Sequence record: NC_104876.1 | From: a phage | Reading direction: 5' to 3' (one strand) | DNA length: 40,815 nt | Shown: in pieces, positions 3,916 to 38,774 of the stretch | Position numbering within the stretch: the stretch's first letter is position 1 | How the letters are laid out: the number at the start of each line of letters is the position of its first letter | Notes under the pieces: model-generated | What the model saw: only the letters and a program-made list of their open reading frames with translations | Databases searched by the model: none | What the model was told of the DNA's origin: nothing | Program-made: the position numbers and the translations under genes

Positions 3916-4428
3916 TTAACCCCGGTACACATTAAATGAGAAGCCATTGTTAAGACCGCCGCACAGTAACGGGCGTAATGCGTCGTCCGCAGCGGTAATA
4001 GCGGTTGTGGCGCCACTGTTGCCGTTGTTGAAGTATGTCACTGTCACAGCACCCTCAACACGCTCAGTCTGCACGGAACGCCCATCTGAGTTAGCCCGAA
4101 CATCAGTACCCGCACCATACGTAACCGCAGCGATTACTTGTGCCCGGATTAACTGCGACGGGATAACATTATCCGCTACGGTGAAGCCGTTTAGTGTTGT
4201 TCCTGTACGTGGGTACGCCAGAGACTGTTCAGCGGATACGCGACGCCCGCACATCTGAGGTTCTGCAAGCCCGACATAAGTAGCCCCGTTGCGCAAGGCC
4301 ACCTCTGCGGCGGTATCGTCCGCGGGCAACTCCAGTCCGTAATTAGCCGCTAACGCGCGGGCGTCGGCCAGACTAACGTAACTGTCGGCATCAGGTACTA
4401 TCGACCCATCTTCCACGATTAGCGGCAT
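3916..4428 (-). CDS. Hypothetical virion protein (possibly head-tail adaptor or decoration)
   Basis: 170-aa ORF directly downstream of the capsid gene region. Confidence 0.4.
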   Translation of the reverse strand: MPLIVEDGSIVPDADSYVSLADARALAANYGLELPADDTAAEVALRNGATYVGLAEPQMCGRRVSAEQSLAYPRTGTTLNGFTVADNVIPSQLIRAQVIAAVTYGAGTDVRANSDGRSVQTERVEGAVTVTYFNNGNSGATTAITAADDALRPLLCGGLNNGFSFNVYRG

Positions 4429-4620
4429 AAATTATTCCTCTGATTTCGCCCGGCGCTGGCGGCGTGGTGTCTCTTCTTTAGCCGATTCTACCACGGTGCC
4501 TTCTGGTGCGAAACGAGCATCTACCACACGGAACCCCTGACGGTTGTACTCCCGCTTCTGTTCTACGGTAATAGGCATAGGTACGTATTTAATTTCCACT
4601 TTAATTTCTCCTAGTAAAAA

Positions 4621-4656: not shown

Positions 4657-5625
4657 TTACAGGTCCGCGTCGGCGATTGCCAGAGTACCGAGAGTGTGCT
4701 TGTTCTCGGCAACAGCTTTGTCCCAGTTGGTCGCGGTGAACAGTTCTGCGTCCAGCGGAGATTTACCGCCGTTGGCGACATCCCAGCTATAGCCTTTCAG
4801 TTTCAGGCCGAAGCTGTAATCTGCCTGCCAGGTGGTCTGGATGCGGGTGTTACCGTTTCTGGTATCAATGTTGCTGATAATGTCAGAAGCATTATCAACG
4901 ATGATGCCGTTTGCAACTACGGACAGGACCTTAGTCTTGTTCGGAGTACCGGCCTCGTACAGCGCAGGAATGTCAGAGATTACGTAACGCTTGCCGAGAA
5001 CATCGACAACCATAACGTTACCAGCAACGAACAGCTGGTTTGCGTTAGTCAGCGCTTTATCTACCAGCGTGTGGTAAGCAGCACCGGTCATGATGTCGGT
5101 AATCAGCAGCTGAGACTGGTCGCCGAATTTAGCGTGGCTGTTGTTCAGCACGTTCAGGGACAGACCCACGGTTGCAGATACGTCGTTAACCAGCGCGGCC
5201 TGACCAGATACCGCCGCAACAGCTGCGCCAACAGCGGTGTTGAGCTGGTCTGCTAACAGCGCATCGGAGAAGCCTTCGGAAATAGCACGAATCGCGCTTG
5301 CCGGGTCTTCGTTAAGCCAGGTCATTTGCGCAGGCTCGAACAGTACCGGTCCGAAGCCGCCAGCGACTTTAACGCCTACATGCTCGCCCTGAGTCAGCGC
5401 GGTAGCTGCCTGAGACGCGATATCGGCGTAACGGTCAACGCGGCGTTTAGCGGAGGCAATCTGGTTAAAGAAAGACTCACGGGAGAAGTCACCGCGCCAT
5501 GAAGCGGTAGACAGTACAATTGCGCCACCGGAGGCTGCGTTAAACTGGTCAGTTTTCTGGCCAAGCAGTTCGATAGTGGTACCGACGATATCGTCGTTAT
5601 AAACCTTCATATCTGACAGAGACAT
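4657..5625 (-). CDS. Major capsid protein
   Basis: 322-aa ORF following the scaffold gene, with its own downstream terminator; position and size typical of a major capsid gene. No family-level motif verified. Confidence 0.55.
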   Translation of the reverse strand: MSLSDMKVYNDDIVGTTIELLGQKTDQFNAASGGAIVLSTASWRGDFSRESFFNQIASAKRRVDRYADIASQAATALTQGEHVGVKVAGGFGPVLFEPAQMTWLNEDPASAIRAISEGFSDALLADQLNTAVGAAVAAVSGQAALVNDVSATVGLSLNVLNNSHAKFGDQSQLLITDIMTGAAYHTLVDKALTNANQLFVAGNVMVVDVLGKRYVISDIPALYEAGTPNKTKVLSVVANGIIVDNASDIISNIDTRNGNTRIQTTWQADYSFGLKLKGYSWDVANGGKSPLDAELFTATNWDKAVAENKHTLGTLAIADADL

Positions 5626-5631
5626 ATTCTG

Positions 5632-6258
5632 TTATCCTCGTTTGCCGTATTTGGCGTTAAGTTTTTGCTGGATTACGTCCGCACCACCGGCCCCGCCAGT
5701 AGAATTTTTGTTACCGGAAGCCCCGCCGCCGGTTGCTGCATCTGCTTTAATCAGATGCGAAAATGCTTTGTGCTCACGCAGATACTTTTTAAATTGCTCT
5801 GCGTCGGTGGTGATGACATTACCGTCTGCACCAGTGAACTTGGTAACAACGTCATCGCCGTCGAACTCGGCCTTGACCATCATAGCGATGATATCCGCTG
5901 CGCTCTCATCAATCAACATGCCAGACAACTGGCTGATAACTGATTTACGTTCTGCGCCGAGGATACGCTCCGCCATTTTGCTAATCTTACCGTCTTTCTC
6001 GGCGAGTACTGGCTCATACTGACTGCGCAACGTTTTCTCGAATGCCTCAAGTTCGCCGTTCTGTTTTGCGCGTTCCTGTTCGGCTTTCAGCTTCGCATCT
6101 GCGGCTTCTTTAGCGGCAGCGGCAGCAGCTTTCTTTTCAGACAAGAGTTTCTCGTTGTTAGCTTTAAGACCTGATACCAGCGCGTCAACTTCTTCTTTGG
6201 TAAACGTGGTCTTAGTCTCTTGTTGTTCGATAGTTTCGTCTTTCACTTCTTCGCTCAT
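5632..6258 (-). CDS. Scaffolding protein
   Basis: Ala/Lys/Glu-rich helical protein (KAAAAAAKEAADAKLKAEQERAK) immediately upstream of the capsid gene. Start set to ATG at 6258 (MSEEVKDE) with a GGGGG RBS; track start 6309 has no RBS. Confidence 0.5.
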   Translation of the reverse strand: MSEEVKDETIEQQETKTTFTKEEVDALVSGLKANNEKLLSEKKAAAAAAKEAADAKLKAEQERAKQNGELEAFEKTLRSQYEPVLAEKDGKISKMAERILGAERKSVISQLSGMLIDESAADIIAMMVKAEFDGDDVVTKFTGADGNVITTDAEQFKKYLREHKAFSHLIKADAATGGGASGNKNSTGGAGGADVIQQKLNAKYGKRG

Positions 6259-6337
6259 CAGTATGCCCCCTGGACGTTGGAATCCGGGCCACCCGGATTT
6301 ACATGTCAAGAATAAATTATTCCAACATACAAGGCAA

Positions 6338-6601
6338 CTATTCCAGAATATTCCTCACGTAATCCTGCAACATGAACACTTTCAGACGCAGTTGCCGCAC
6401 ACATTCGGCGTTCTGAACGTCGATAGCTAAATCCTCGTCAGCGTCGCTACTTGGCAGTGCCAGTTTGCACGGCGGCTGCATCATCGTCGTATCCGGGGAT
6501 GGAATTGGCGTTTGCGACGGCGCGGGACTTGAGCTGCACGCGCTCAGGGTCAAAAGTGCACACGCTGCGGCCAGGCGTTTTAATGTACTTAACGACTTCA
6601 C
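6338..6601 (-). CDS. Outer-membrane spanin (Rz1-like lipoprotein)
   Basis: Signal peptide with lipobox LTLSAC followed by a Pro-rich segment. Starts inside the Rz-like gene in another frame and extends beyond it. Confidence 0.5.
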   Translation of the reverse strand: MKSLSTLKRLAAACALLTLSACSSSPAPSQTPIPSPDTTMMQPPCKLALPSSDADEDLAIDVQNAECVRQLRLKVFMLQDYVRNILE

Positions 6602-6833
6602 GGGTGATTACCTCTGATTTCGTCTTGCCTTCGTTATCAGCGGCTGCGGCCTTCGATTCATCCTGCTGCTGCCGTTGTGTTTTCTTAGCTAACTCAGCCT
6701 GTGCTTTCTGCTGTTGTTGCGAAACGAGATTCGCCCGGCCTCCGTTCCAGCCGCTGCGATACTGGTAGATGCCGTGTGCGTAAGCCAGGATGATGAAACA
6801 TGCTCCCGCTACGACAGTTGCTTTAAGATTCAT
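6447..6833 (-). CDS. Inner-membrane spanin (Rz-like)
   Basis: N-terminal TM helix (VVAGACFIILAYAHGIY), Gln/Lys-rich coiled-coil region, overlapping lipoprotein ORF embedded in alternate frame. Confidence 0.5.
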   Translation of the reverse strand: MNLKATVVAGACFIILAYAHGIYQYRSGWNGGRANLVSQQQQKAQAELAKKTQRQQQDESKAAAADNEGKTKSEVITREVVKYIKTPGRSVCTFDPERVQLKSRAVANANSIPGYDDDAAAVQTGTAK

Positions 6834-7152
6834 GTTTCCCCTTTCTCGATAAGTAAAGCCCCGCCTTAAAGCGGGGCGCTAGTCCTTATCATTTAAACAT
6901 AGAAACGGCGTAATCTCAGTAAACCAGTTACTTTTTACACAAGCAATAGAGTATGGCCCTTCCGAACGCGTCAGCGCAACTACACTCGGACTTAACGTCC
7001 GACTCCGTTACCTGCCGCGCCGCGGTCGCTTGTTCATACTTCACAAGCTCAGGTGGAGCTTAGCACATTTTTGGTGAAAAGTCAACTATTCGAATAGTTT
7101 ATTCCAACATTTACAATTGAGTGGAATAACTGGAATAATCACAGGCACTAAA

Positions 7153-7170
7153 AAGCCCCTTTCGGGGCTT
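7153..7170 (-). terminator. Intrinsic terminator (AGCCCC-TTTC-GGGGCT) after the Ig-like protein gene
   Basis: GC hairpin followed by TTTTT on the minus strand. The same 18-nt hairpin recurs at 8722-8739. Confidence 0.55.
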
Positions 7171-8712: not shown

Positions 8713-8721
8713 ACTACAAGA

Positions 8722-8739
8722 AAGCCCCTTTCGGGGCTA
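8722..8739 (-). terminator. Intrinsic terminator or attenuator between portal and head morphogenesis genes
   Basis: AGCCCC-TTTC-GGGGCT hairpin followed by TTTCTTGT on the minus strand. Confidence 0.45.
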
Positions 8740-15731: not shown

Positions 15732-15878
15732 ATTCTTCGCTCACCCCGTTATAGACGCCGTTGTAGTCCCCGTCGCAGATGAACGGGTAGAGCATATCTT
15801 CGTACTCGTCCTGCAACTCACCTAAAGTTACTTCGCTATAATCTTTCATATTCTGTCTCCCCTCTCGTTTGTGTAAAT

Positions 15879-15909
15879 GAATAGTAGCCTATTCTATCTT
15901 AGTGTGCAA
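15879..15909 (-). promoter_or_regulatory. Promoter (TTGCAC-N17-TACTAT) with embedded operator palindrome GAATAGTAGCCTATT
   Basis: -35 at 15904-15909 and -10 at 15881-15886 on minus strand; operator 15879-15893. Near-identical to promoters at 17201-17231 and 39657-39688. Confidence 0.55.
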
Positions 15910-17200: not shown

Positions 17201-17231
17201 GAATAGTAACCTATTATGTTGGGGTGTGCAA
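17201..17231 (-). promoter_or_regulatory. Promoter (TTGCAC-N17-TACTAT) with embedded operator GAATAGTAACCTATTAT
   Basis: -35 at 17226-17231, -10 at 17203-17208 (minus strand); inverted repeat AATAG-N4-CTATT at 17202-17215. Confidence 0.55.
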
Positions 17232-17602: not shown

Positions 17603-17631
17603 TTGATTTCCCATTATTCGCAATGTATACT
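17603..17631 (+). promoter_or_regulatory. Sigma70-type promoter TTGATT-N17-TATACT for the plus-strand arm
   Basis: -35 17603-17608, -10 17626-17631; first ATG with RBS at 17664. Confidence 0.5.
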
Positions 17632-17663
17632 TGGTTTCGTTAACTGATAATGAGGGTTTGAGA

Positions 17664-17834
17664 ATGACACAGAATGAGGTAGCTGAGCGTATCGGAGTTA
17701 CTCGTCGCACACTAAATAACTGGTTAAAGAGTGGGAAGTTCCCTGATTGCTGTATCCGTATTATGGGCCGCCGACAGCCAGGTACGTTTGACCGAGAGAA
17801 AGTGGAAGCGTGGATTAAGGAGAACGTGAAATGA
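17664..17834 (+). CDS. Small HTH DNA-binding protein (AlpA/excisionase-like regulator)
   Basis: MTQNEVAERIGVTRRTLNNWLKSGKFP looks like a helix-turn-helix. Start set to 17664 (GAGGG RBS) rather than track 17631, which overlaps the promoter -10. Confidence 0.5.
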   Translation: MTQNEVAERIGVTRRTLNNWLKSGKFPDCCIRIMGRRQPGTFDREKVEAWIKENVK

Positions 17835-20597: not shown

Positions 20598-20661
20598 GTC
20601 AATTACTCCTTAGTCAGTTGATATGTGAATAGTACCATATTAATTATTTTAGAAAAGCCCA

Positions 20662-20690
20662 TTGACATGTGAATAGTTCGCTATTATAGT
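20662..20690 (+). promoter_or_regulatory. Promoter TTGACA-N17-TATAGT with embedded operator GAATAGTTCGCTATTAT; second operator-like site at 20627-20643
   Basis: -35 20662-20667, -10 20685-20690; inverted repeat AATAG-N4-CTATT 20672-20685; upstream site GAATAGTACCATATTAA. Confidence 0.6.
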
Positions 20691-20720
20691 TAGCCCATAC
20701 CAAACGAGAGGAGAGATAAA

Positions 20721-27021: not shown

Positions 27022-27213
27022 ATGAAACACGAATATGACCGCAAACCAGCACGTGACATCGTACCGGGTGACATGATTTTCAACGTTAAGACCCGCCACC
27101 CTGTTGCCGTTGATACGGTGTTCGTCGAGTCGAACGGTAAACTGGTTATCGAAGATGTAACAGGAAACGTTACGGCGTTCGGGCGTAAGGAACTGGTTCT
27201 GGTGGCGAAATGA
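27022..27213 (+). CDS. Hypothetical protein
   Basis: 63-aa ORF, ATGA overlap with next gene. Confidence 0.4.
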   Translation: MKHEYDRKPARDIVPGDMIFNVKTRHPVAVDTVFVESNGKLVIEDVTGNVTAFGRKELVLVAK

Positions 27214-29590: not shown

Positions 29591-29608
29591 AGGCCCCGTT
29601 TGGGGCCT
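29591..29608. terminator. Bidirectional intrinsic terminator (AGGCCCC-GTTT-GGGGCCT) between replication arm and tailspike gene
   Basis: Same stem and flanks as the 1303-1320 terminator with inverted loop; T-runs on both strands. Confidence 0.6.
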
Positions 29609-29613
29609 TAGTT

Positions 29614-32568
29614 TTATTTATCTTCTAGTGCTGCCAGCCTCTTCTCGAACTCGCGCATCTTCTTACGCTGATAGGCAATCTCTATGAAGAACATCTGGTC
29701 CGCCCTAACCCCCCATCTGCCGCCGGGAGGGGATACTTGTACAGTCTGGCCATCTTCATCAATATCATACGCAGCTTCAATTGGGTCGTAGCACAAGAAA
29801 GCATATTTACAATCGGTAGAATCTTTCTCCATAAGCCCATGGTTGACCAAGATGTCTCGCACATCTTGGGCTATCACACCGAAGTGTATCCTTGCAGTGT
29901 CACCCTTGATTGCTAGGCTTTCAAGCCACTTAAAAGACATTACATGTATATCTTCCCATGCGGTAAGGAGTTGTCCCTCAATTTCCTCTTTATTCGTCTT
30001 AAGTGTACCATCAGACGTATTTATCGTACCGGTGGTCGCGTACACCGTAGTCCACCTATTACCTGCCGAACCTAAAGACACTCGCGAGTCTAAGTAAGGA
30101 AGAAAATTGTTGTATGAGTAGAAGCCTCCTGACGCATGCATAATAGCCCTGTTAGGCGTTGCATGGTTTGCCCCGTACAGTTGCAGCAACGCACCATCGG
30201 AACTGGATGCACCATCACCACCGCTAACTATCAGTCTTTGACCCGATGGGGTTTTAGTGGGGACTGTTTTTGAAATCAGCCCGTAATCACCATCAAACTG
30301 TGCACGCACGGCGGACTGTTGTGTACCATCGTATTCCAGCCCCGTTACATGCAGTGAGTACACGCTTACATCATTATCAAATGTTAAAGGTGCCCCTACA
30401 TGACGTACACCATCTACCCCCATGGCGACAGGTAGTGTACGGTTAGGAGTTGCTCCGTATTTGAAATCACGGGATACATACGGGTGGTCTTCAATCTTTA
30501 TCCGGTAGCTATATAAGTCAGCCGGATGCCCATCATGTTTGTACCATAACCTCGCACTGTTATCCCCTATGCTCCAGGGAGAGAAGAAGTCTTCCCCACC
30601 AAAGATATAGTACAACCAGCCATCTTTAACACAGACCGAGCCGACGCCGACAGCAGAGTTAACGATATGACCCTGGTATATTTGGTCGGTAATATTAAAC
30701 CACTGAACATCATCTAAAGATGAAGGCCAGGACGACACATTAACTTTGCACATAAAGGTCCTCGGATACGAACCTTCATAGCGGCTGTCCTGCTCACCAC
30801 CTTCCCACTCACCAAAGGCACGTTCTGTACCAAAGATGTAGAGATAGTCACCTACTTTAGCGAACGGAAGATTGGAGTGATGTACATTGTTCGGAAATCG
30901 CAAGTAGCTCCAGTTTTGCCCAGAATCGGTGCTCATCGCCAGTGTAGAGCCGGGGGAAGTAGGTAATGTGCCGCGTGTGGTAAGGTATAACACACCACCA
31001 TAACTTTTCACGCACGGCTCAGAAGCGTTATCAGCGTATGCCTGAGCGACAGTGCGACGAACGAATACGCCAGGATTGTCATACACGTTACTAAAATACA
31101 AGACACCGAGACGCCTAGGGGACACATCGCCGTTGTGATAGCCGACAGCGATAGTGTAGTTAACATCATCTATAACCGCAAAACTATGTGTCTCCGTGAC
31201 ACACAAATCAGCGTTAGTGGAGTATGCTACCCCAGGCAATTCGGTAATTTCCCACGGGCTGTCCCAGAATCGCGTTGCGAAGTTCCAGGTAACACCCGCA
31301 TTGTTTATGGTGGAACTCGCCGGGCTTGAGAGCGTAACAGTGAACGTATTTCGGTTAATTATAGACGCAACCGTCATATTACCCGATACGCCAGTTGCCG
31401 ATGTATTAGAGAAGTTAACCGCATCTCCTGCTTTTAGGCCGTGATTTTCTATAACAATGGTAGCAGTAGTGGAACCAGAACTAATAGTTATTCCGCCGGT
31501 TGGGTGTCTAAAATACGGCATTGGGCGTGACCAAAGTTCTGCCTTCTTCATCCGCATATTAGATAAGTAGCGGGTTTCTATAACTGCATATAATCGGTTG
31601 CCGCACGTACCCATGCTCATGCAGTGGTAGTTAACTCTGTCCGCGGAAACACTAGCATTATAGCCAGCATGGATTGGGGTCAACCACTCAGGCATTGACC
31701 AAGTCTGCCCGTCGTCACCAGAGCGAACCCAAGCTACATGTAAGTTTTGAACGCCATGTCGTTCGCCTGCCATAAAGGGAGCGTAAATAACATTGTCGTA
31801 GACGAAAGTTTTATCCTGCGTCCATGCGTTGTAGAACGGGGTATCCGTCACCTTAGTTAGTGAGCTGTTAAAGAAGCCATCAGCTACATAAGTAAGCGGT
31901 TGCCCAGCTACGCGCTCGTAAACGAATGCAGCATTCTTAAATTTACTAATGTCAGGTAATTGGGAAACTTTATAAGTCAAACCCCTGCCGTCTATAATCC
32001 AATTGTTGTGGGAAGCTGCTAATACATTAAAAATAGATTGAGTATCATCAGTTACGCCGTCGCCCACGGCGCCCCATGCGCGCGGGTCGTATTCGTCCTT
32101 CCATCGCGCCACATGTAAATCTGGGTACAGAATTGCACCGTTTACATCAGATATTTGCTGCCGCAGTATGACCGACCCGACAGGCTGCCACGCCCCATCT
32201 GCCACGCCACCGGTGGACTGCGGAGAAGATGACGCCGGGATAGTTTTTGGCAGAGCGCCCAACCAATGGTACCAATCCCCATCGCCACCAGAGGACGACG
32301 GCCACAAAACTGCGGTGTTTCGGTCGTTAGCGGATAGTGTACCGCCTGACGTGAAATCAAAATCTGCCAGTTTAAAACCAGCGTCACGCAACACGGCAGG
32401 TAGTGTCTTCTGGGTCTGCCCTGTAACCTGGTTTGTCGCGTAATCAATATCTGCACCCCCGGCTACTCCGCCGGATTTACCCGTGATAACCTCGGCTTCA
32501 AAAATCTGGTGCTTCTTGGCGGTCTGTAAATCCGCCAGGCTTAAAACGTCACCACATCCGCTTGACAT
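29614..32568 (-). CDS. Tailspike with sialidase-like beta-propeller (putative endosialidase) and C-terminal intramolecular chaperone (peptidase S74-type) domain
   Basis: Asp-box motifs SGDDGQTW and STDSGQNW; C-terminal about 130 aa (from ...TINTSDGTLKTNKEE) match the self-cleaving chaperone pattern with a Ser-Lys dyad; 984 aa. Confidence 0.6.
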   Translation of the reverse strand: MSSGCGDVLSLADLQTAKKHQIFEAEVITGKSGGVAGGADIDYATNQVTGQTQKTLPAVLRDAGFKLADFDFTSGGTLSANDRNTAVLWPSSSGGDGDWYHWLGALPKTIPASSSPQSTGGVADGAWQPVGSVILRQQISDVNGAILYPDLHVARWKDEYDPRAWGAVGDGVTDDTQSIFNVLAASHNNWIIDGRGLTYKVSQLPDISKFKNAAFVYERVAGQPLTYVADGFFNSSLTKVTDTPFYNAWTQDKTFVYDNVIYAPFMAGERHGVQNLHVAWVRSGDDGQTWSMPEWLTPIHAGYNASVSADRVNYHCMSMGTCGNRLYAVIETRYLSNMRMKKAELWSRPMPYFRHPTGGITISSGSTTATIVIENHGLKAGDAVNFSNTSATGVSGNMTVASIINRNTFTVTLSSPASSTINNAGVTWNFATRFWDSPWEITELPGVAYSTNADLCVTETHSFAVIDDVNYTIAVGYHNGDVSPRRLGVLYFSNVYDNPGVFVRRTVAQAYADNASEPCVKSYGGVLYLTTRGTLPTSPGSTLAMSTDSGQNWSYLRFPNNVHHSNLPFAKVGDYLYIFGTERAFGEWEGGEQDSRYEGSYPRTFMCKVNVSSWPSSLDDVQWFNITDQIYQGHIVNSAVGVGSVCVKDGWLYYIFGGEDFFSPWSIGDNSARLWYKHDGHPADLYSYRIKIEDHPYVSRDFKYGATPNRTLPVAMGVDGVRHVGAPLTFDNDVSVYSLHVTGLEYDGTQQSAVRAQFDGDYGLISKTVPTKTPSGQRLIVSGGDGASSSDGALLQLYGANHATPNRAIMHASGGFYSYNNFLPYLDSRVSLGSAGNRWTTVYATTGTINTSDGTLKTNKEEIEGQLLTAWEDIHVMSFKWLESLAIKGDTARIHFGVIAQDVRDILVNHGLMEKDSTDCKYAFLCYDPIEAAYDIDEDGQTVQVSPPGGRWGVRADQMFFIEIAYQRKKMREFEKRLAALEDK

Positions 32569-36501: not shown

Positions 36502-38774
36502 TATTTGAACCCCGGCGCGTTTCTTGTGGCCTTGCGGGCCTTGCTAATCTTACTGTTGCTGTTCTGCAAAGAGGCCGCCACTTGCTCTTCAATGATGATA
36601 CGCAAACGGCCTTCATCATCTTGTTCAGTGGATACGTTGCCAATCTGAGAACTCGTGTTGTTTACGATAGTAACATTAGACGGGCCGGAAGAAGACCCGT
36701 TTTGCCCCATAATTTCTTTCATCTGCTGTGCTGTGCGAACACGAGATGCGCCAGCCGGCATAATAACTTCTGGTTTACCGCGTTCTGCGATGGTGGAAGC
36801 CTGCCCCGCGGATAACTGTCCACCCTGTTCACGCGCGGACCGGATAGCGGAAACCTGCGCCATACCTGCACCAACGGCAGCGGCAGCGGCTACAGGGGCC
36901 AGGAACGGGCCAACTACAGGTATAGCTGCCGTTGACTTGTACGCCTCAATAGCTGCGGTGTACGTGGCGATAGTGGCCTGTACGATAGCGAATGCCTTGT
37001 ACGCGCCAGAAGCCTCACCCAACGCAGACCCGATGTTTGAGGCCATGTTACCAAAGGCCGTTGCCGTTGCATCGGCACGTTTGGTTGCGTATTGCTCGTT
37101 GATGGCGTTAAGAGCGGCCTGATACTGCTTCTCGCTAATCAAACCCTGCTCGCGGTACTTATCCGCTACCGCCAGTTTCTGCTGTTCCTGGATGTCGAGA
37201 AGCTCAAGCTCAGTAGCGTTCTGACCCATAATCTGAGCCATGAAGTCGTCACCTTTCTGCTGCTTTTCCTGGGCTTCTTTCTGGCGTTTATCCAGTTCAT
37301 CTTGTCGTTTTTGCCCGGCTTCGAGGACGATAGCTGTTTTAGCTTGTTCATATTCTTTCAGGGACAACGCGCCCTGGCTGTAGAACTCTTTTGCCTTAGC
37401 CAGTTTCTGCTGTTCCTGCGCGTCGATAGCCTTTAACTCGTCGTTGTTCTGACGGGCCAAAGTGTCGAGGTAATCTTGCGCCTGATTCCGCAATTGCTCT
37501 GCTTTCTTGGCGGCGGCTTTTGCTGCTTTATCGTCGGTTGTCCCCACCCCACCAGTTCCGCCCTTTTTATTAACAAGGCTGGCTAAGTCAATTTCTTGCT
37601 TCTTACGCTCGTCGTACTGCTTGCGCTGTTCCTCAATTTCTTTCTTACGCTGCTTAGACCTGTCGGTAATGGCTTGGGATTCGGCCTCTGCACGTTTTAT
37701 ACTGGCGTCGTATGCGGCGTCAGCTTCTGCGGTCAGGTTTTTAAATGTGAGTGCTGCCGTTTTGCTCGGATCAAACACGTCTGCGAGGGTCTGACCTAAC
37801 GCTACGGCGTAATCGTCAATGCGCTGGAACCACGCAATAACCTCGTGAAACGTCTGCTGGATGTCAGGCAACCATTCACGGATAGCATCCGGTATAGTAC
37901 CCAGCGAGTCTGACATATCCGCGGATTTGTCCTCGGTATCGTATGCCAGGTCGTTTAAGGCATCAGAAATAAACTTGAATGATTCATTGAACAGTGTCAC
38001 CCAATCCTGGAGCGTGGCGGCTATCTCATTAGACGCAATGGCGTCGGTGAGTGCCGAAATAGCGTCTTCTGCCTTCGCGGCTTGCTCACCTACGGCGTCG
38101 CCGAAACCGGATTGCGCTACCGCAAGTACAAGGCCATCAAAGGAGTCCGCCAGGCTCGACAACTGACCGTCTAACGTCTTAGAGCGCGTCTCCATCGCCC
38201 CGGCGAAATCGGTGTTGCCGATGTTTAGCAGGTATTTCTGAATCTCTTCGGAGTTCTTTTTAACCGTGGTGGTGACGCCGCGGAACGTGAACGAAACGGT
38301 ATCTGCCTGTTGGGAAGACTTGATACCGAACTCTTTCAGTCGCTCAAACTCAAAGGTACTGGCGTCGGCAACCGCCTCAATCATCTGATTAAGGTCTTTA
38401 CCCATAGCCGCCGCGGTGTTGCCGTAGGAGATTAACGCCTCTTTGCTTGGGTTCAGGCCGAGGGCCACCAGCTTAGTAAAGCCTTCCACCGCCTGGTTAA
38501 GACCATATGGGGTTTCTTTTGCGAACTGTTGCAGGACGCTGAAAGCCTTAGCCGCGTTCTCAGCGCTCCCGGTCATTGTGATGAGGCCGGAGTTCAGCTT
38601 ATCGAAGTTGCGCTGGGAGTCCACCAGCGCACTGAACACCTGTTTGGCAGTTTCCAGACTGACAACGGCGGCGGCGGCGGCCCCCGCCGCCTTGGTAAGC
38701 CCGTTCAGTTGTGATGTGGTTTTATCGACGCCGGTCGATGATACTCGTACTATCAAGCTAGCGGTATCAGCCAT
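36501..38774 (-). CDS. Tail tape measure protein
   Basis: 757 aa, long Ala/Gln/Lys-rich coiled coils with internal repeats, C-terminal Gly/Ala-rich hydrophobic segment. Start set to ATG 38774 (MADTAS); track start 38789 is TTG. Confidence 0.7.
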   Translation of the reverse strand: MADTASLIVRVSSTGVDKTTSQLNGLTKAAGAAAAAVVSLETAKQVFSALVDSQRNFDKLNSGLITMTGSAENAAKAFSVLQQFAKETPYGLNQAVEGFTKLVALGLNPSKEALISYGNTAAAMGKDLNQMIEAVADASTFEFERLKEFGIKSSQQADTVSFTFRGVTTTVKKNSEEIQKYLLNIGNTDFAGAMETRSKTLDGQLSSLADSFDGLVLAVAQSGFGDAVGEQAAKAEDAISALTDAIASNEIAATLQDWVTLFNESFKFISDALNDLAYDTEDKSADMSDSLGTIPDAIREWLPDIQQTFHEVIAWFQRIDDYAVALGQTLADVFDPSKTAALTFKNLTAEADAAYDASIKRAEAESQAITDRSKQRKKEIEEQRKQYDERKKQEIDLASLVNKKGGTGGVGTTDDKAAKAAAKKAEQLRNQAQDYLDTLARQNNDELKAIDAQEQQKLAKAKEFYSQGALSLKEYEQAKTAIVLEAGQKRQDELDKRQKEAQEKQQKGDDFMAQIMGQNATELELLDIQEQQKLAVADKYREQGLISEKQYQAALNAINEQYATKRADATATAFGNMASNIGSALGEASGAYKAFAIVQATIATYTAAIEAYKSTAAIPVVGPFLAPVAAAAAVGAGMAQVSAIRSAREQGGQLSAGQASTIAERGKPEVIMPAGASRVRTAQQMKEIMGQNGSSSGPSNVTIVNNTSSQIGNVSTEQDDEGRLRIIIEEQVAASLQNSNSKISKARKATRNAPGFK
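37171..37419 (-). repeat. Internal tandem duplication within the tape measure gene
   Basis: Exact 19-nt repeat CCAGTTTCTGCTGTTCCTG at 37172-37190 and 37401-37419; protein repeat IDAQEQQKLAKAKEFY / LDIQEQQKLAVADKYR. Confidence 0.6.

What the first reader, a model, noticed from the sequence alone, without database searches (positions are those of the whole stretch)
6317..7110. Repeated 12-mer TTATTCCAACAT and everted GAATAG palindromes in the two intergenic regions upstream of late (spanin, scaffold, capsid) genes
The exact 12-mer occurs at 6317-6328 and 7099-7110. The second copy is adjacent to a perfect 16-bp palindrome AACTATTCGAATAGTT (7084-7099); the first to CTATTCCAGAATA (6338-6350). Both precede good -35 hexamers on the minus strand (TTGACA at 6304-6309, TTGACT at 7080-7085) that lack a good -10, the signature of activator-dependent late promoters. 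The half-site GAATAG matches the early operator but in the opposite arrangement, which would let one regulator repress early and act differently at late promoters.
Basis: seen in the sequence. Interest (0 to 1): 0.4.

Follow-up and report, generated by a model that had tools for sequence, protein, structure and literature searches.

The report
Repeated GGAATA sites controlling late genes
Two short stretches inside the structural-gene block of a K1H-like E. coli phage carry conserved clusters of the 6-base unit GGAATA, next to a host-type promoter, a conserved folded leader RNA and RNA hairpins; they look like ordinary but so far undescribed control points for spanin, scaffold and capsid expression.

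Summary
The window is a complete Kagunavirus genome, and the coding strand here is minus. The 12-mer and the 16-bp palindrome are not the conserved units. Across three lineages (Kaguna-type, Jersey-type, contig L106) the conserved parts are arrays of GGAATA built around GGAATA-N3-TATTC. These are the only such clusters in each of three whole genomes, and array A is constrained even at synonymous sites of the o-spanin 3' end. Site B does have a -10: TTGACT-N17-TGcTAAGCT, an extended -10 promoter kept in Jersey-type phages. It is followed by a ~200-nt leader that is more conserved than second codon positions next door. The leader has a covariation-supported three-tier hairpin (96% paired; 12 of 23 pairs changed on both sides), no Rfam match, and a terminator-like hairpin just before the spanin ribosome-binding site. 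The shared-regulator idea (XRE acting at early and late sites) is not supported. A conserved 67-aa Xis/BldC-like winged-helix protein is the better candidate, but this is untested. Overall these are ordinary, previously undescribed regulatory regions.

The parts
7122..7139 (.). Array B, distal tandem units TGGAATAAc-TGGAATAAt (read on + strand; TTATTCCAgTTATTCCA on the coding strand), 9-bp spacing. The conserved block shared with relatives starts exactly here.
   Evidence: conserved in Kaguna-, Jersey- and L106-type phages
7092..7105 (-). Array B, core inverted repeat GGAATA-AAC-TATTC.
   Evidence: exact match. Arms are conserved and N3 is variable (AAC, AGC, CTT, ATT) across lineages.
7084..7099 (.). 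Kaguna-type only.
   Evidence: It is replaced by TTATTCAAAAAGTA in Jersey-type phages.
7057..7085 (-). Promoter P_B: -35 TTGACT (7085-7080), 17-bp spacer, extended -10 TGc-TAAGCT (7065-7057). Predicted start near 7050.
   Evidence: Read. Jersey-type has TAGACT-N17-TGt-TACGCT with the same spacing. A promoter was annotated in silico at the same place in phage PVP-SE2.
6851..7050 (-). About 200-nt non-coding leader RNA (5' hairpin, three-tier central hairpin, 3' terminator-like hairpin).
   Evidence: Nucleotide diversity 0.036 against 0.052-0.179 at spanin codon positions. The small ORF is not frame-conserved. No Rfam family.
6955..7029 (-). Central leader domain P1-P2-P3 (23 base pairs).
   Evidence: Covariance model hit of 82 bits here, 78-106 bits in Kaguna-type and 35-41 bits in Jersey-type. 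96.2% of cells paired against 23-39% when slid; 12 of 23 pairs changed on both sides; conserved G-U pairs specific to this strand.
6858..6877 (-). GC-rich hairpin GCCCCGC-TTTAAG-GCGGGGC followed by TTTACTT, 20 nt before the i-spanin SD/ATG. Terminator-like.
   Evidence: Four pair types at one stem position. The U-tract is short, and shorter still in Jersey-type and L106.
6338..6355 (-). Array A, distal direct repeats AGGAATAttc-TGGAATAg (10-bp spacing), inside the last 6 codons and stop of o-spanin.
   Evidence: Synonymous sites are invariant in 40 distinct sequences while codons -8 to -22 vary freely.
6310..6325 (-). Array A, proximal element TG-GAATAATTTATTC: inverted repeat GGAATA-ATT-TATTC, whose left part reads TGgAATAAT (extended -10-like).
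   Evidence: GGAATAATTTATTCTTG is invariant in 50 loci of three lineages. N3 is invariant here but variable at B.
6304..6309 (-).
   Evidence: It is TTGTTA in Jersey-type and TTGACA in L106.
6281..6299 (-). RNA hairpin AATCCGGG-TGG-CCCGGATT between array A and the scaffold SD.
   Evidence: Compensatory changes (ACACCGGG/CCCGGTGT in Jersey-type, GCCGGG/CCCGGC in L106). U-G wobbles occur only on the coding-sense strand and the loop base is free.
7153..7170 (-). Terminator of the upstream Hoc/Ig-like gene. It bounds region B on the 5' side.
   Evidence: annotated as a terminator in phage Sciku.
4618..4637 (-). Strong terminator hairpin right after the major capsid gene. It closes the scaffold-capsid unit that starts at site A.

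Best explanation
The two elements are operator-like arrays of the unit GGAATA. Each array has one inverted repeat, GGAATA-N3-TATTC, plus a tandem pair 9-10 bp apart. They mark two internal control points of the structural-gene operon of Guernseyvirinae phages.

Most likely a small sequence-specific DNA-binding protein binds them cooperatively and sets when and how strongly transcription is added for the spanins and for scaffold/major capsid. My candidate is the conserved 67-aa Xis/BldC/MerR-like winged-helix protein encoded at 17631-17834, made with the early/middle replication genes.

At B the array lies directly upstream of a genuine sigma-70 extended -10 promoter (TTGACT-N17-TGcTAAGCT, start near 7050). 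Its transcript begins with a ~200-nt conserved structured leader that ends in a terminator-like hairpin 20 nt before the i-spanin ribosome-binding site. That leader probably tunes read-through or translation into the spanin genes.

At A the proximal repeat overlaps an extended -10-like TGGAATAAT, and the distal repeats cover the -35 region. A transcript started there (about 6310) or arriving from B carries a conserved 5' hairpin and ends at the strong terminator after the capsid gene. This gives a stable, abundant scaffold-capsid message.

Shown: the motif arrays, their conservation and constraint, the promoter consensus at B, the RNA structures.
Inferred: that a protein binds, which protein it is, whether it activates or represses, the transcription starts, and the function of the leader.
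For: - Motif clustering: GGAATA occurs 3 + 3 times in two ~40-bp stretches against 0.6 per kb. GGAATA-N3-TATTC gives 6 matches against 0.54 expected, 0 of 100 shuffles.
- In K1H and in Jerseyvirus jersey, the only clusters of 3 or more GGAATA per 60 bp, and the only exact GGAATA-N3-TATTC, are at the two homologous sites.
- Arms are conserved with a variable N3 at B in three lineages, as expected for a dimer-binding palindrome. An RNA stem would show covarying arms instead.
- The tandem pair is inverted relative to the genes in L106, so recognition is orientation-independent and therefore at the DNA level.
- Synonymous sites of the last 6 o-spanin codons are frozen.
- Non-coding diversity is 0.036-0.051, against 0.179 at third codon positions.
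- Promoter B: the hexamers, the TG and the 17-bp spacing are kept between genera while the spacer sequence changes. Another group annotated a promoter there.
- Other sigma-70-like promoters precede terS and the lysis region, so host RNAP is used for late genes.
- Leader RNA. Hairpin at A. Terminator after the capsid gene.
- Candidate protein: HTH_17 and PHROG 'excisionase and transcriptional regulator'. It has a winged-helix model whose nearest solved folds are RacA, BldC, phage Xis, RdfS and gpNu1. It is 82% identical between Kaguna and Jersey, against 49% for XRE. It is present in both genera.
Against: - There is no experimental start site or binding data. The only transcriptome of a relative is at gene level.
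- The distance from the core repeat to the -35 hexamer differs by 6-7 bp between A and B. In L106 the B array is separated from the promoter region by a terminator. A single fixed activation geometry is therefore excluded, and the arrays may act otherwise (repression, roadblock, DNA bending).
- Promoter B looks self-sufficient by sequence.
- Site A has no canonical -35/-10 pair under either reading.
- The structural matches of the candidate protein are weak (E 0.008-0.1, pLDDT 70.5), and it was not detected on the L106 contig, although that search only finds close relatives.
- One Jersey isolate lacks the central leader hairpin, so that domain is dispensable at least in the laboratory.
Confidence: 0.45

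Rival explanations
1. Both sites are activator-dependent late promoters with a good -35 and no -10. The same XRE (or small HTH) regulator that represses the early operators binds the everted GAATAG half-sites.
For: GAATAG half-sites occur in the early operators GAATAG-N4-CTATTC at 15879-15894 and 17201-17216 and, everted, at 7086-7097. TTGACA and TTGACT are present. Site A indeed has no -10 at 16-18 bp.
Against: Site B has a conserved extended -10. The everted palindrome is absent from Jersey-type and L106 phages, which keep the rest. TTGACA at A is TTGTTA in Jersey-type. GAATAG as a hexamer is not enriched (21 copies against about 20 expected). XRE is 49% identical and the early motif has diverged between genera, while GGAATA is unchanged. 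An everted, zero-spaced pair cannot be bound in the same way as an inverted N4 pair by one dimer (inference).
Confidence: 0.12
2. The repeats are core promoter elements and not factor-binding sites. TGGAATAAT is an extended -10 (TGn + AATAAT) that drives a -35-independent promoter at A (coding strand, start about 6310). In the window it also drives an opposite-strand promoter at B (TTTACA-N18-TGgAATAAT, 7110-7139).
For: The scan finds the + strand promoter at B with 10 of 12 matches plus TG. TGGAATAAT on the coding strand at A is invariant, and its N3 (ATT, which supplies the last bases of AATAAT) is frozen at A but free at B. The conserved RNA hairpin at 6299-6281 would then lie near the 5' end of the transcript.
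Against: This explains only 2 of about 10 units. K1H-like phages have TGGAATACG at B, with no T at -7. L106 has AGGAATAAT (no TG) at A and TGGAATAAA at B. No usable -35 accompanies the site A hexamer in any lineage. The + strand promoter at B would transcribe only about 35 nt into a terminator.
Confidence: 0.15
3. The elements act at the RNA level. GGAAUA repeats and the AU-rich stretch in the polycistronic late transcript serve as a processing or binding site (RNase E or III, or a GGA-binding protein such as CsrA). The hairpin at 6299-6281 then protects the new 5' end of the scaffold-capsid mRNA.
For: Array A is transcribed as part of the o-spanin mRNA. The adjacent hairpin is clearly an RNA element (strand-specific wobbles and compensatory changes). 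A strong terminator closes the unit after the capsid gene.
Against: Array B lies between a terminator and a promoter, so it is largely untranscribed. Its tandem pair is on the opposite strand in the window and is inverted in L106. The arms of the inverted repeat are conserved in sequence and do not covary. A 5-bp A-U stem with a 3-nt loop would be unstable.
Confidence: 0.12
4. The conservation reflects recombination junctions between exchangeable modules (linker sequences), or packaging or replication sites. It does not reflect transcription control.
For: The conserved block at B starts exactly where relatives carry different upstream DNA (Hoc-like gene alone, or plus an extra small ORF). Site A precedes two different scaffold/capsid modules. 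Salmonella phages with a divergent spanin carry the Kaguna-type region B.
Against: Junction homology does not explain a repeated 6-mer in phased arrays, frozen synonymous sites, or retention of the units when the flanks have diverged to about 65%. The arrays are 5 kb from terS, and there is no AT-rich or DnaA-type origin signature. GenBank records do not start preferentially here.
Confidence: 0.08
5. A host factor conserved between E. coli and Salmonella binds the arrays (first lead: RcsB, because AGAATATTCCT resembles the RcsAB box).
For: The units are identical in phages of two host genera. The core GGA-N4-TCT is present at 6344-6354.
Against: The published RcsB box TN(G/A)GA-N4-TC(T/C)NA (PMC7913699) has no match in either region. 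There are 3 matches elsewhere against 1.6 expected. The other units have the wrong spacing. By my own comparison from memory, there is no match to the CRP, Fis, IHF, ArgR or Fur consensus.
Confidence: 0.06

Closest known systems
Arrays of short repeats bound by small excisionase-family or MerR-like winged-helix proteins (lambda Xis, P2 Cox, 186 Apl, Streptomyces BldC)
   Same: Several 6-8-bp units at about one-helical-turn spacing, in direct and inverted orientation, lie next to promoters. A single-domain winged-helix protein of about 60-70 aa is encoded in the same genome.
   Different: No binding has been shown. The unit sequence is unrelated. This phage has no integrase, so any such protein would act purely as a transcription or architectural factor. 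Structural similarity is weak (E 0.008-0.1).
Lambda pR'-6S RNA-tR' late leader with Q antitermination
   Same: A sigma-70 promoter, then a leader of about 200 nt ending in a terminator hairpin, placed directly in front of lysis (Rz/Rz1-type spanin) and head genes.
   Different: No Q-family domain was found among 20 small ORFs scanned. There is no conserved -10-like pause element, and the first 30 nt differ between genera. The hairpin's U-tract is short and is lost in Jersey-type and L106. Holin and endolysin are encoded elsewhere.
HK022 put RNA and other cis-acting leader RNAs that modify elongation or translation
   Same: A conserved, covariation-supported stem-loop domain lies in the first 100 nt of a phage operon transcript, upstream of a terminator-like hairpin.
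   Different: It is one three-tier hairpin, not two stem-loops. There is no sequence similarity and no Rfam hit. One natural isolate lacks the domain. No function has been tested.
Lambda CII-dependent promoters (direct repeats TTGC-N6-TTGC straddling the -35 region)
   Same: At site A, two direct repeats 10 bp apart (GGAATA-N4-GGAATA) would straddle the -35 region of a promoter that has only a -10-like element.
   Different: This depends on the unproven reading of TGGAATAAT as the -10. There is no CII homolog, and a third unit overlaps the -10 itself, which would suggest repression.
Kagunavirus 'phage promoter' motif tgAATAGTa-ccTATTat-T (PHIRE; fBC-Eco01, PMC9825357)
   Same: A repeated near-palindromic element in intergenic regions of the same phage genus. 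It shares the GAATA core. It has 6 copies here, at 15878, 17200, 20626, 20670, 23401 and 39673.
   Different: It is a different element. It overlaps the -10 of TTGCAC-N17-TACTAT promoters in the early region. It is not present at sites A or B and has diverged in Jersey-type phages. The source paper attributes it to a phage RNA polymerase, which this genome does not appear to encode.

Membership tests
Sigma-70 extended -10 promoter (site B, minus strand) | -35 hexamer close to TTGACA, 16-18 bp before the -10 | tested here: met
   TTGACT (5 of 6) with a 17-bp spacer. Jersey-type has TAGACT at the same spacing.
Sigma-70 extended -10 promoter (site B, minus strand) | TGn immediately upstream of a -10 that keeps A at -11 and T at -7 | tested here: met
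   TGc-TAAGCT at 7065-7057. Variants are TGa-TAAGCT and TGt-TACGCT. The hexamer matches only 3 of 6, so the simple scan did not list it.
Sigma-70 extended -10 promoter (site B, minus strand) | Transcription start about 7 nt downstream, used by RNAP holoenzyme | not testable with these tools
   The published RNA-seq of a relative is at gene level only.
Activator-dependent (class II-type) late promoter | Defective -35 (or core) element with the activator site abutting or overlapping it at a fixed distance | tested here: not met
   B has a near-consensus -35 plus an extended -10. The distance from repeat to hexamer differs by 6-7 bp between A and B. In L106 the array is about 130 bp away, beyond a terminator. 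Site A alone remains inconclusive.
XRE-type early operator TGAATAGTAnCCTATT | Inverted GAATAG-N4-CTATTC overlapping a -10 | tested here: not met
   Near B the best match has 3 mismatches (7075-7090), and there is none at A. The palindrome at B is everted with zero spacing and is specific to the Kaguna type.
Intrinsic (rho-independent) terminator (6877-6858) | GC-rich stem-loop | tested here: met
   8 pairs, 7 of them G-C. Compensatory changes give 4 pair types.
Intrinsic (rho-independent) terminator (6877-6858) | Uninterrupted U-tract right after the stem | tested here: inconclusive
   UUUACUU here, UUAGCGU in Jersey-type, UGUUACG in L106. It may be a weak attenuator or only a structural hairpin.
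Lambda-type Q antitermination unit | Q-family antiterminator gene in the genome | tested here: not met
   No Q-family Pfam domain in 20 small early or late-proximal ORFs, and none is annotated in K1H. Not every ORF was scanned.
Known RNA family (Rfam 15) | Covariance-model score at or above the gathering threshold | tested here: not met
   No hits in the whole window. The best sub-threshold match is 16 bits against 42 needed (wcaG), E = 3.
Conserved structured cis-regulatory leader RNA (generic) | Base pairs kept through compensatory changes, strand-specific | tested here: met
   96.2% paired against 23-39% when slid. 12 of 23 pairs changed on both sides, 0 of 500 shuffles reach this, and G-U pairs occur in 16 of 18 sequences. 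The alignment was fitted by the model, which favours the structure, but the sliding control is decisive. Folding each sequence independently gives the same architecture.
Small protein-coding gene in the spacer (annotated in Sciku and PVP-SE2) | Reading frame, start and stop conserved; substitutions mostly synonymous | tested here: not met
   The start and N-terminal frame switch through a 1-nt indel. Other frames or stops occur in L004, L015, L019 and L028. Jersey-type shares only the DNA-conserved stretch, and amino-acid changes are frequent.
RcsB / RcsAB box | TN(G/A)GA-N4-TC(T/C)NA | tested here: not met
   No match in 6262-6360 or 7080-7145. There are 3 matches elsewhere against 1.6 expected.
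Excisionase/MerR-like winged-helix DNA-binding protein (candidate binder, 17631-17834) | HTH_17-type sequence and beta-alpha-alpha-beta-beta-alpha fold | tested here: met
   Pfam HTH_17 at 5.8e-8 and phrog_66 at 6.6e-11. The AF2 topology and nearest folds are RacA, BldC, Xis, RdfS and gpNu1 (weak E-values).
Excisionase/MerR-like winged-helix DNA-binding protein (candidate binder, 17631-17834) | Specific binding to the GGAATA arrays | not testable with these tools
   Only indirect support exists: 82% identity across genera, matching the unchanged motif.

The most novel reading that the evidence does not exclude
Guernseyvirinae (Kaguna- and Jersey-type lytic phages, more than 440 sequenced genomes) time or boost their late genes with a so far undescribed two-part switch. 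The first part is an Xis/BldC-like winged-helix protein that polymerises on phased GGAATA arrays. The second is a new ~200-nt structured leader RNA (three-tier hairpin plus terminator-like hairpin) that acts in cis as an attenuator or antiterminator, or as a translational gate for the spanin genes. This would be a late-gene control mechanism different from Q, Ogr/Delta, Mor/C and sigma-replacement systems.
Probability: 0.2. Interest if true: 0.6.

Novelty: new member of a known kind. Interest (0 to 1): 0.35.

Why it matters
Kaguna- and Jersey-type phages are among the most frequently isolated therapeutic and biocontrol phages for E. coli K1/UPEC and Salmonella. Nothing is known about how they schedule structural and lysis genes: the genome papers only list software-predicted promoters.

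This analysis replaces a vague motif with precise, testable parts:
- two GGAATA operator arrays;
- a conserved extended -10 promoter;
- a covariation-supported leader RNA that is absent from Rfam;
- a 5' hairpin and terminator that frame the scaffold-capsid message;
- a named candidate regulator.

If confirmed, these would give handles for engineering lysis timing and capsid yield, and a new phage leader-RNA family. If not, they remain ordinary regulatory spacers.

Tried and rejected
1. The 12-mer as the functional unit. Rejected: it has no further copies and is not conserved in Jersey-type phages.
2. The 16-bp palindrome as significant in itself. Rejected: 3 such palindromes are observed against 0.65 expected, and it is lineage-specific.
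3. A third motif copy at 4425-4438. It is an SD + stop + ATG gene junction, so probably coincidental.
4. A small protein in the spacer. Rejected on frame inconsistency.
5. A known RNA family or a tRNA. No Rfam hit and no ARAGORN hit. The tRNA-Ser annotation in ER21 is on the other strand, over a terminator.
6. RcsB box. No match.
7. Q-type antiterminator. No such domain found.
8. Opposite-strand promoter at B as a conserved feature. Rejected because K1H-like phages have TGGAATACG and instead carry a separate small gene with its own promoter.
9. IMG/VR scans with the 15-16-nt AT-rich strings were swamped by chance hits. They were useful only for finding L106.
10. Genome-collection scan with the leader core gave 76 chance hits in unrelated phyla plus one phage-contaminant scaffold.
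11. Published transcriptome of K1B4. Gene-level classes only, with no expression table in the supplements.
12. Co-occurrence of the HTH_17 gene on the L106 contig. Inconclusive, because the search finds only close relatives.
13. The leader model on L106. The best hit is at the homologous place with the same GUAA loop, but E = 0.27, so it is not counted as evidence.
Full report
**Context.** The window is a complete ~40.8-kb Kagunavirus genome (K1H-like, Guernseyvirinae), 96% identical to several E. coli phages. The genes around the finding are on the minus strand. Their order is: SPP1-gp7-like head morphogenesis gene, Hoc/Ig-like decoration gene (7636-7175), terminator (7170-7153), spacer B (7174-6834), i-spanin (6833-6447), o-spanin (6601-6338), spacer A (6337-6259), scaffold (6258-5632), major capsid (5625-4657), then a strong terminator (4637-4618).

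**Checking the observation.**
- The exact 12-mer occurs only twice, with no relatives at up to 2 mismatches.
- A 12-mer repeat somewhere in the window is expected by chance (172 pairs observed, about 57 in shuffles). The two spacers sharing one has P of about 0.001.
- Perfect 16-bp palindromes are not rare (3 observed, 0.65 expected).
- The significant signal is a shorter unit. TTATTCCA/TGGAATAA occurs 5 times, 4 of them here. GGAATA clusters 3 + 3. GGAATA-N3-TATTC with up to 1 mismatch gives 6 matches against 0.54 expected, 0 of 100 shuffles. The third locus, 4425-4438, is an SD/stop/ATG junction.
- CTATTCCAGAATA is the end of the o-spanin gene, not intergenic DNA.

**What is conserved.** I compared 48 IMG/VR loci, 180 + 269 GenBank phages, full genomes of K1H and Jerseyvirus jersey and a third lineage, L106.
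- At A the invariant part is AGGAATATTC-TGGAATAG-(13 nt)-TGGAATAATTTATTCTTG.
- At B it is TTATTCCAgTTATTCC-(16 nt)-(T/A)GGAATA-N3-TATTC.
- The ATGT part of the 12-mer, the 16-bp palindrome and the TTGACA at A are not kept in Jersey-type phages. TTGACA becomes TTGTTA there.
- In K1H and in Jersey the two homologous sites are the only places in the genome with 3 or more GGAATA per 60 bp, or with an exact GGAATA-N3-TATTC.
- The last six o-spanin codons, which carry two of the units, show essentially no synonymous change in 40 distinct sequences, whereas codons -8 to -22 vary freely.
- Within 37 Kaguna-type sequences, nucleotide diversity is 0.038 for the 12-mer/palindrome segment and 0.051 for spacer A. 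The i-spanin codon positions 1, 2 and 3 show 0.066, 0.052 and 0.179.

So the elements are real and constrained at the DNA level. The arms are conserved with a free N3 at B, and the tandem pair occurs in either orientation relative to the genes (window versus L106). Both features point to recognition of double-stranded DNA by a protein and not to an RNA stem.

**Site B is a promoter with a leader.** On the coding strand, TTGACT (7085-7080) is followed after 17 bp by TGc-TAAGCT (7065-7057). This is an extended -10 that keeps the critical A-11 and T-7. Jersey-type phages have TAGACT-N17-TGt-TACGCT with a different spacer sequence. The annotators of PVP-SE2 placed an in-silico promoter at the same spot.

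Downstream lie about 200 nt without a conserved ORF. The 36-38-aa ORF annotated in some records changes start and frame through a 1-nt indel and is disrupted in several lineages. This stretch is the most conserved DNA of the region (diversity 0.036).
- Its central 75 nt fold into the same three-tier hairpin in every variant when folded alone.
- A covariance model built from six Kaguna-type variants finds the window (82 bits) and the Jersey-type sequences (35-41 bits).
- On the resulting alignment 96.2% of cells pair, against 23-39% when partners are slid. 12 of 23 pairs change on both sides, and two G-U pairs are kept in 16 of 18 distinct sequences. These would be A-C mismatches on the other strand.
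- The leader ends in a GC-rich hairpin (6877-6858) with four pair types at one position and a short U-tract, 20 nt before the i-spanin start.
- Rfam has no match and ARAGORN finds no tRNA.
- The domain is confined to this phage group. The only hit in bacterial genomes is a contaminant scaffold.
- One Jersey isolate lacks the central domain through a deletion between ACCGCG repeats, while 266 of 269 Jersey-type records are full-length.
- L106 has a structured leader (z = -3.9) with a reduced nested hairpin and the same GUAA loop at the homologous place, but the model score is not significant.

**Site A.** No -10 lies 16-18 bp after TTGACA, and that hexamer is not conserved. What is invariant is TGGAATAAT, an extended -10-like string. 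Its last bases come from the N3 of the inverted repeat, and that N3 is frozen at A but free at B.

Downstream, the hairpin at 6299-6281 shows two double compensatory changes in Jersey-type, a third version in L106, U-G wobbles only on the coding-sense strand, and a free loop base. It is therefore an RNA element that must be transcribed from upstream of 6303. This fits a start near 6310 or read-through from B. It does not fit a start about 35 bp after TTGACA. Together with the strong terminator after the capsid gene, this frames a discrete scaffold-capsid message.

**Relation to the early operator.** TGAATAGTAnCCTATT occurs at 15878, 17200, 20626, 20670, 23401 and 39673. It overlaps the -10 of TTGCAC-N17-TACTAT promoters. 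It is the PHIRE motif reported for fBC-Eco01 (PMC9825357). Two copies precede the XRE gene, which suggests autoregulation.

This element has diverged in Jersey, where only 2-mismatch hits remain, in step with an XRE protein only 49% identical. The GGAATA units are unchanged. The everted GAATAG palindrome at B is specific to the Kaguna type. One regulator for both element types is therefore unlikely.

**Who might bind.** Recognisable DNA-binders are XRE (HTH_3), a 67-aa HTH_17 protein at 17631-17834, and a NinH-like protein.
- HTH_17 is 82% identical between the genera, against 59% for NinH-like and 49% for XRE.
- Its best PHROG is 'excisionase and transcriptional regulator'.
- Its AF2 model (pLDDT 70.5) is a beta-alpha-alpha-beta-beta-alpha winged helix. 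Its nearest solved folds are RacA, BldC, a phage Xis, RdfS and lambda gpNu1 (E 0.008-0.1).
- From general knowledge, small proteins of this class bind arrays of short phased repeats.

This makes HTH_17 a reasonable candidate, nothing more. A host factor is not excluded. The RcsB lead failed its consensus test.

**Mechanism.** I commit, at 0.45, to operator arrays for a small DNA-binding protein that modulates two internal sigma-70 promoters of the structural operon. A structured leader tunes entry into the spanin genes, and a hairpin-to-terminator frame stabilises the scaffold-capsid message.

Whether the protein activates or represses is open. The core repeat sits 6-7 bp further from the -35 hexamer at B than at A. 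At A it overlaps the putative -10. In L106 the B array is inverted and separated from the promoter region by a terminator.

Other sigma-70-like promoters precede terS and the lysis region, so there is no sign of a special late promoter consensus. The only transcriptome of a relative is at gene level and places the capsid in a broad 'middle' class.

**Verdict.** These are ordinary regulatory spacers, but they have not been described before. Their anatomy is precise and conserved, and they include a probable new leader-RNA motif.

Noticed in passing
window 7152-7169 and 8721-8738; also 1314-1329 and 29602-29617: The same 18-nt terminator hairpin AAAGCCCCTTTCGGGGCT occurs after the Hoc-like gene and after the portal gene. 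A 16-nt GGGGCCTTAGTTTTAT is shared by the two convergent gene ends (bidirectional terminators).
   Followed up: no
L094 (K1H) 4362-4500, opposite strand; absent from the window between 7140 and 7153: K1H-like Kagunaviruses carry an extra 33-aa hydrophobic ORF (MMVAISFVLLVNLGLFVWAVSGVEDADSGNGEL) with a good SD and its own early-type promoter (TTGCAG-N17-TACTAT with the AATAGGGTACTATT motif). It lies between the Hoc-like gene and region B and is transcribed against the late genes. It looks like a moron-type insertion.
   Followed up: partly
window 4657-6258 versus L106 and L095: The window's major capsid protein is 93% identical to that of the otherwise divergent contig L106 but has no tblastn hit in Jerseyvirus jersey. 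Most Kagunaviruses carry a different scaffold N-terminus. Site A sits at the junction and precedes both head-module types (mosaicism).
   Followed up: partly
L095 (Jerseyvirus jersey UPWr_S1, MT588083) about 38270-38290: This isolate lacks the central three-tier hairpin of the leader, through a ~48-nt deletion between two ACCGCG repeats. This is a natural test case for the function of the domain.
   Followed up: partly
L415 = NZ_JACVEL010000048.1 (738 bp, Taishania pollutisoli assembly): This orphan scaffold is a Jersey-type phage fragment (Hoc-like gene end, region B, spanin start). It is almost certainly contamination of that genome assembly.
   Followed up: yes
L097 (Salmonella phage ER21, MW355463) 266-344, opposite strand: A 'tRNA-Ser' is annotated over the upstream terminator hairpin and the TTATTCC repeats. 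ARAGORN finds no tRNA in the homologous window region, so this is a likely annotation artefact.
   Followed up: partly
window 20598-20720: Two copies of the early operator (20626, 20670) lie directly upstream of the XRE gene (20597-20382, minus strand), between it and the divergent + strand genes. This is the layout of an autoregulated divergent switch.
   Followed up: no
window 27022-27213 (+): A 63-aa ORF of unknown function (phrog_4879) is 95% identical between this Kagunavirus and Jerseyvirus jersey, far more conserved than its neighbours and than any recognisable regulator.
   Followed up: no
window 7110-7139 (+): A strong opposite-strand promoter-like site, TTTACA-N18-TGgAATAAT (10 of 12 matches plus TG), points into the terminator hairpin only about 15 nt away. 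It is present in window-like and Jersey-type phages but not in K1H-like ones (TGGAATACG). It would make at most a ~35-nt RNA.
   Followed up: partly
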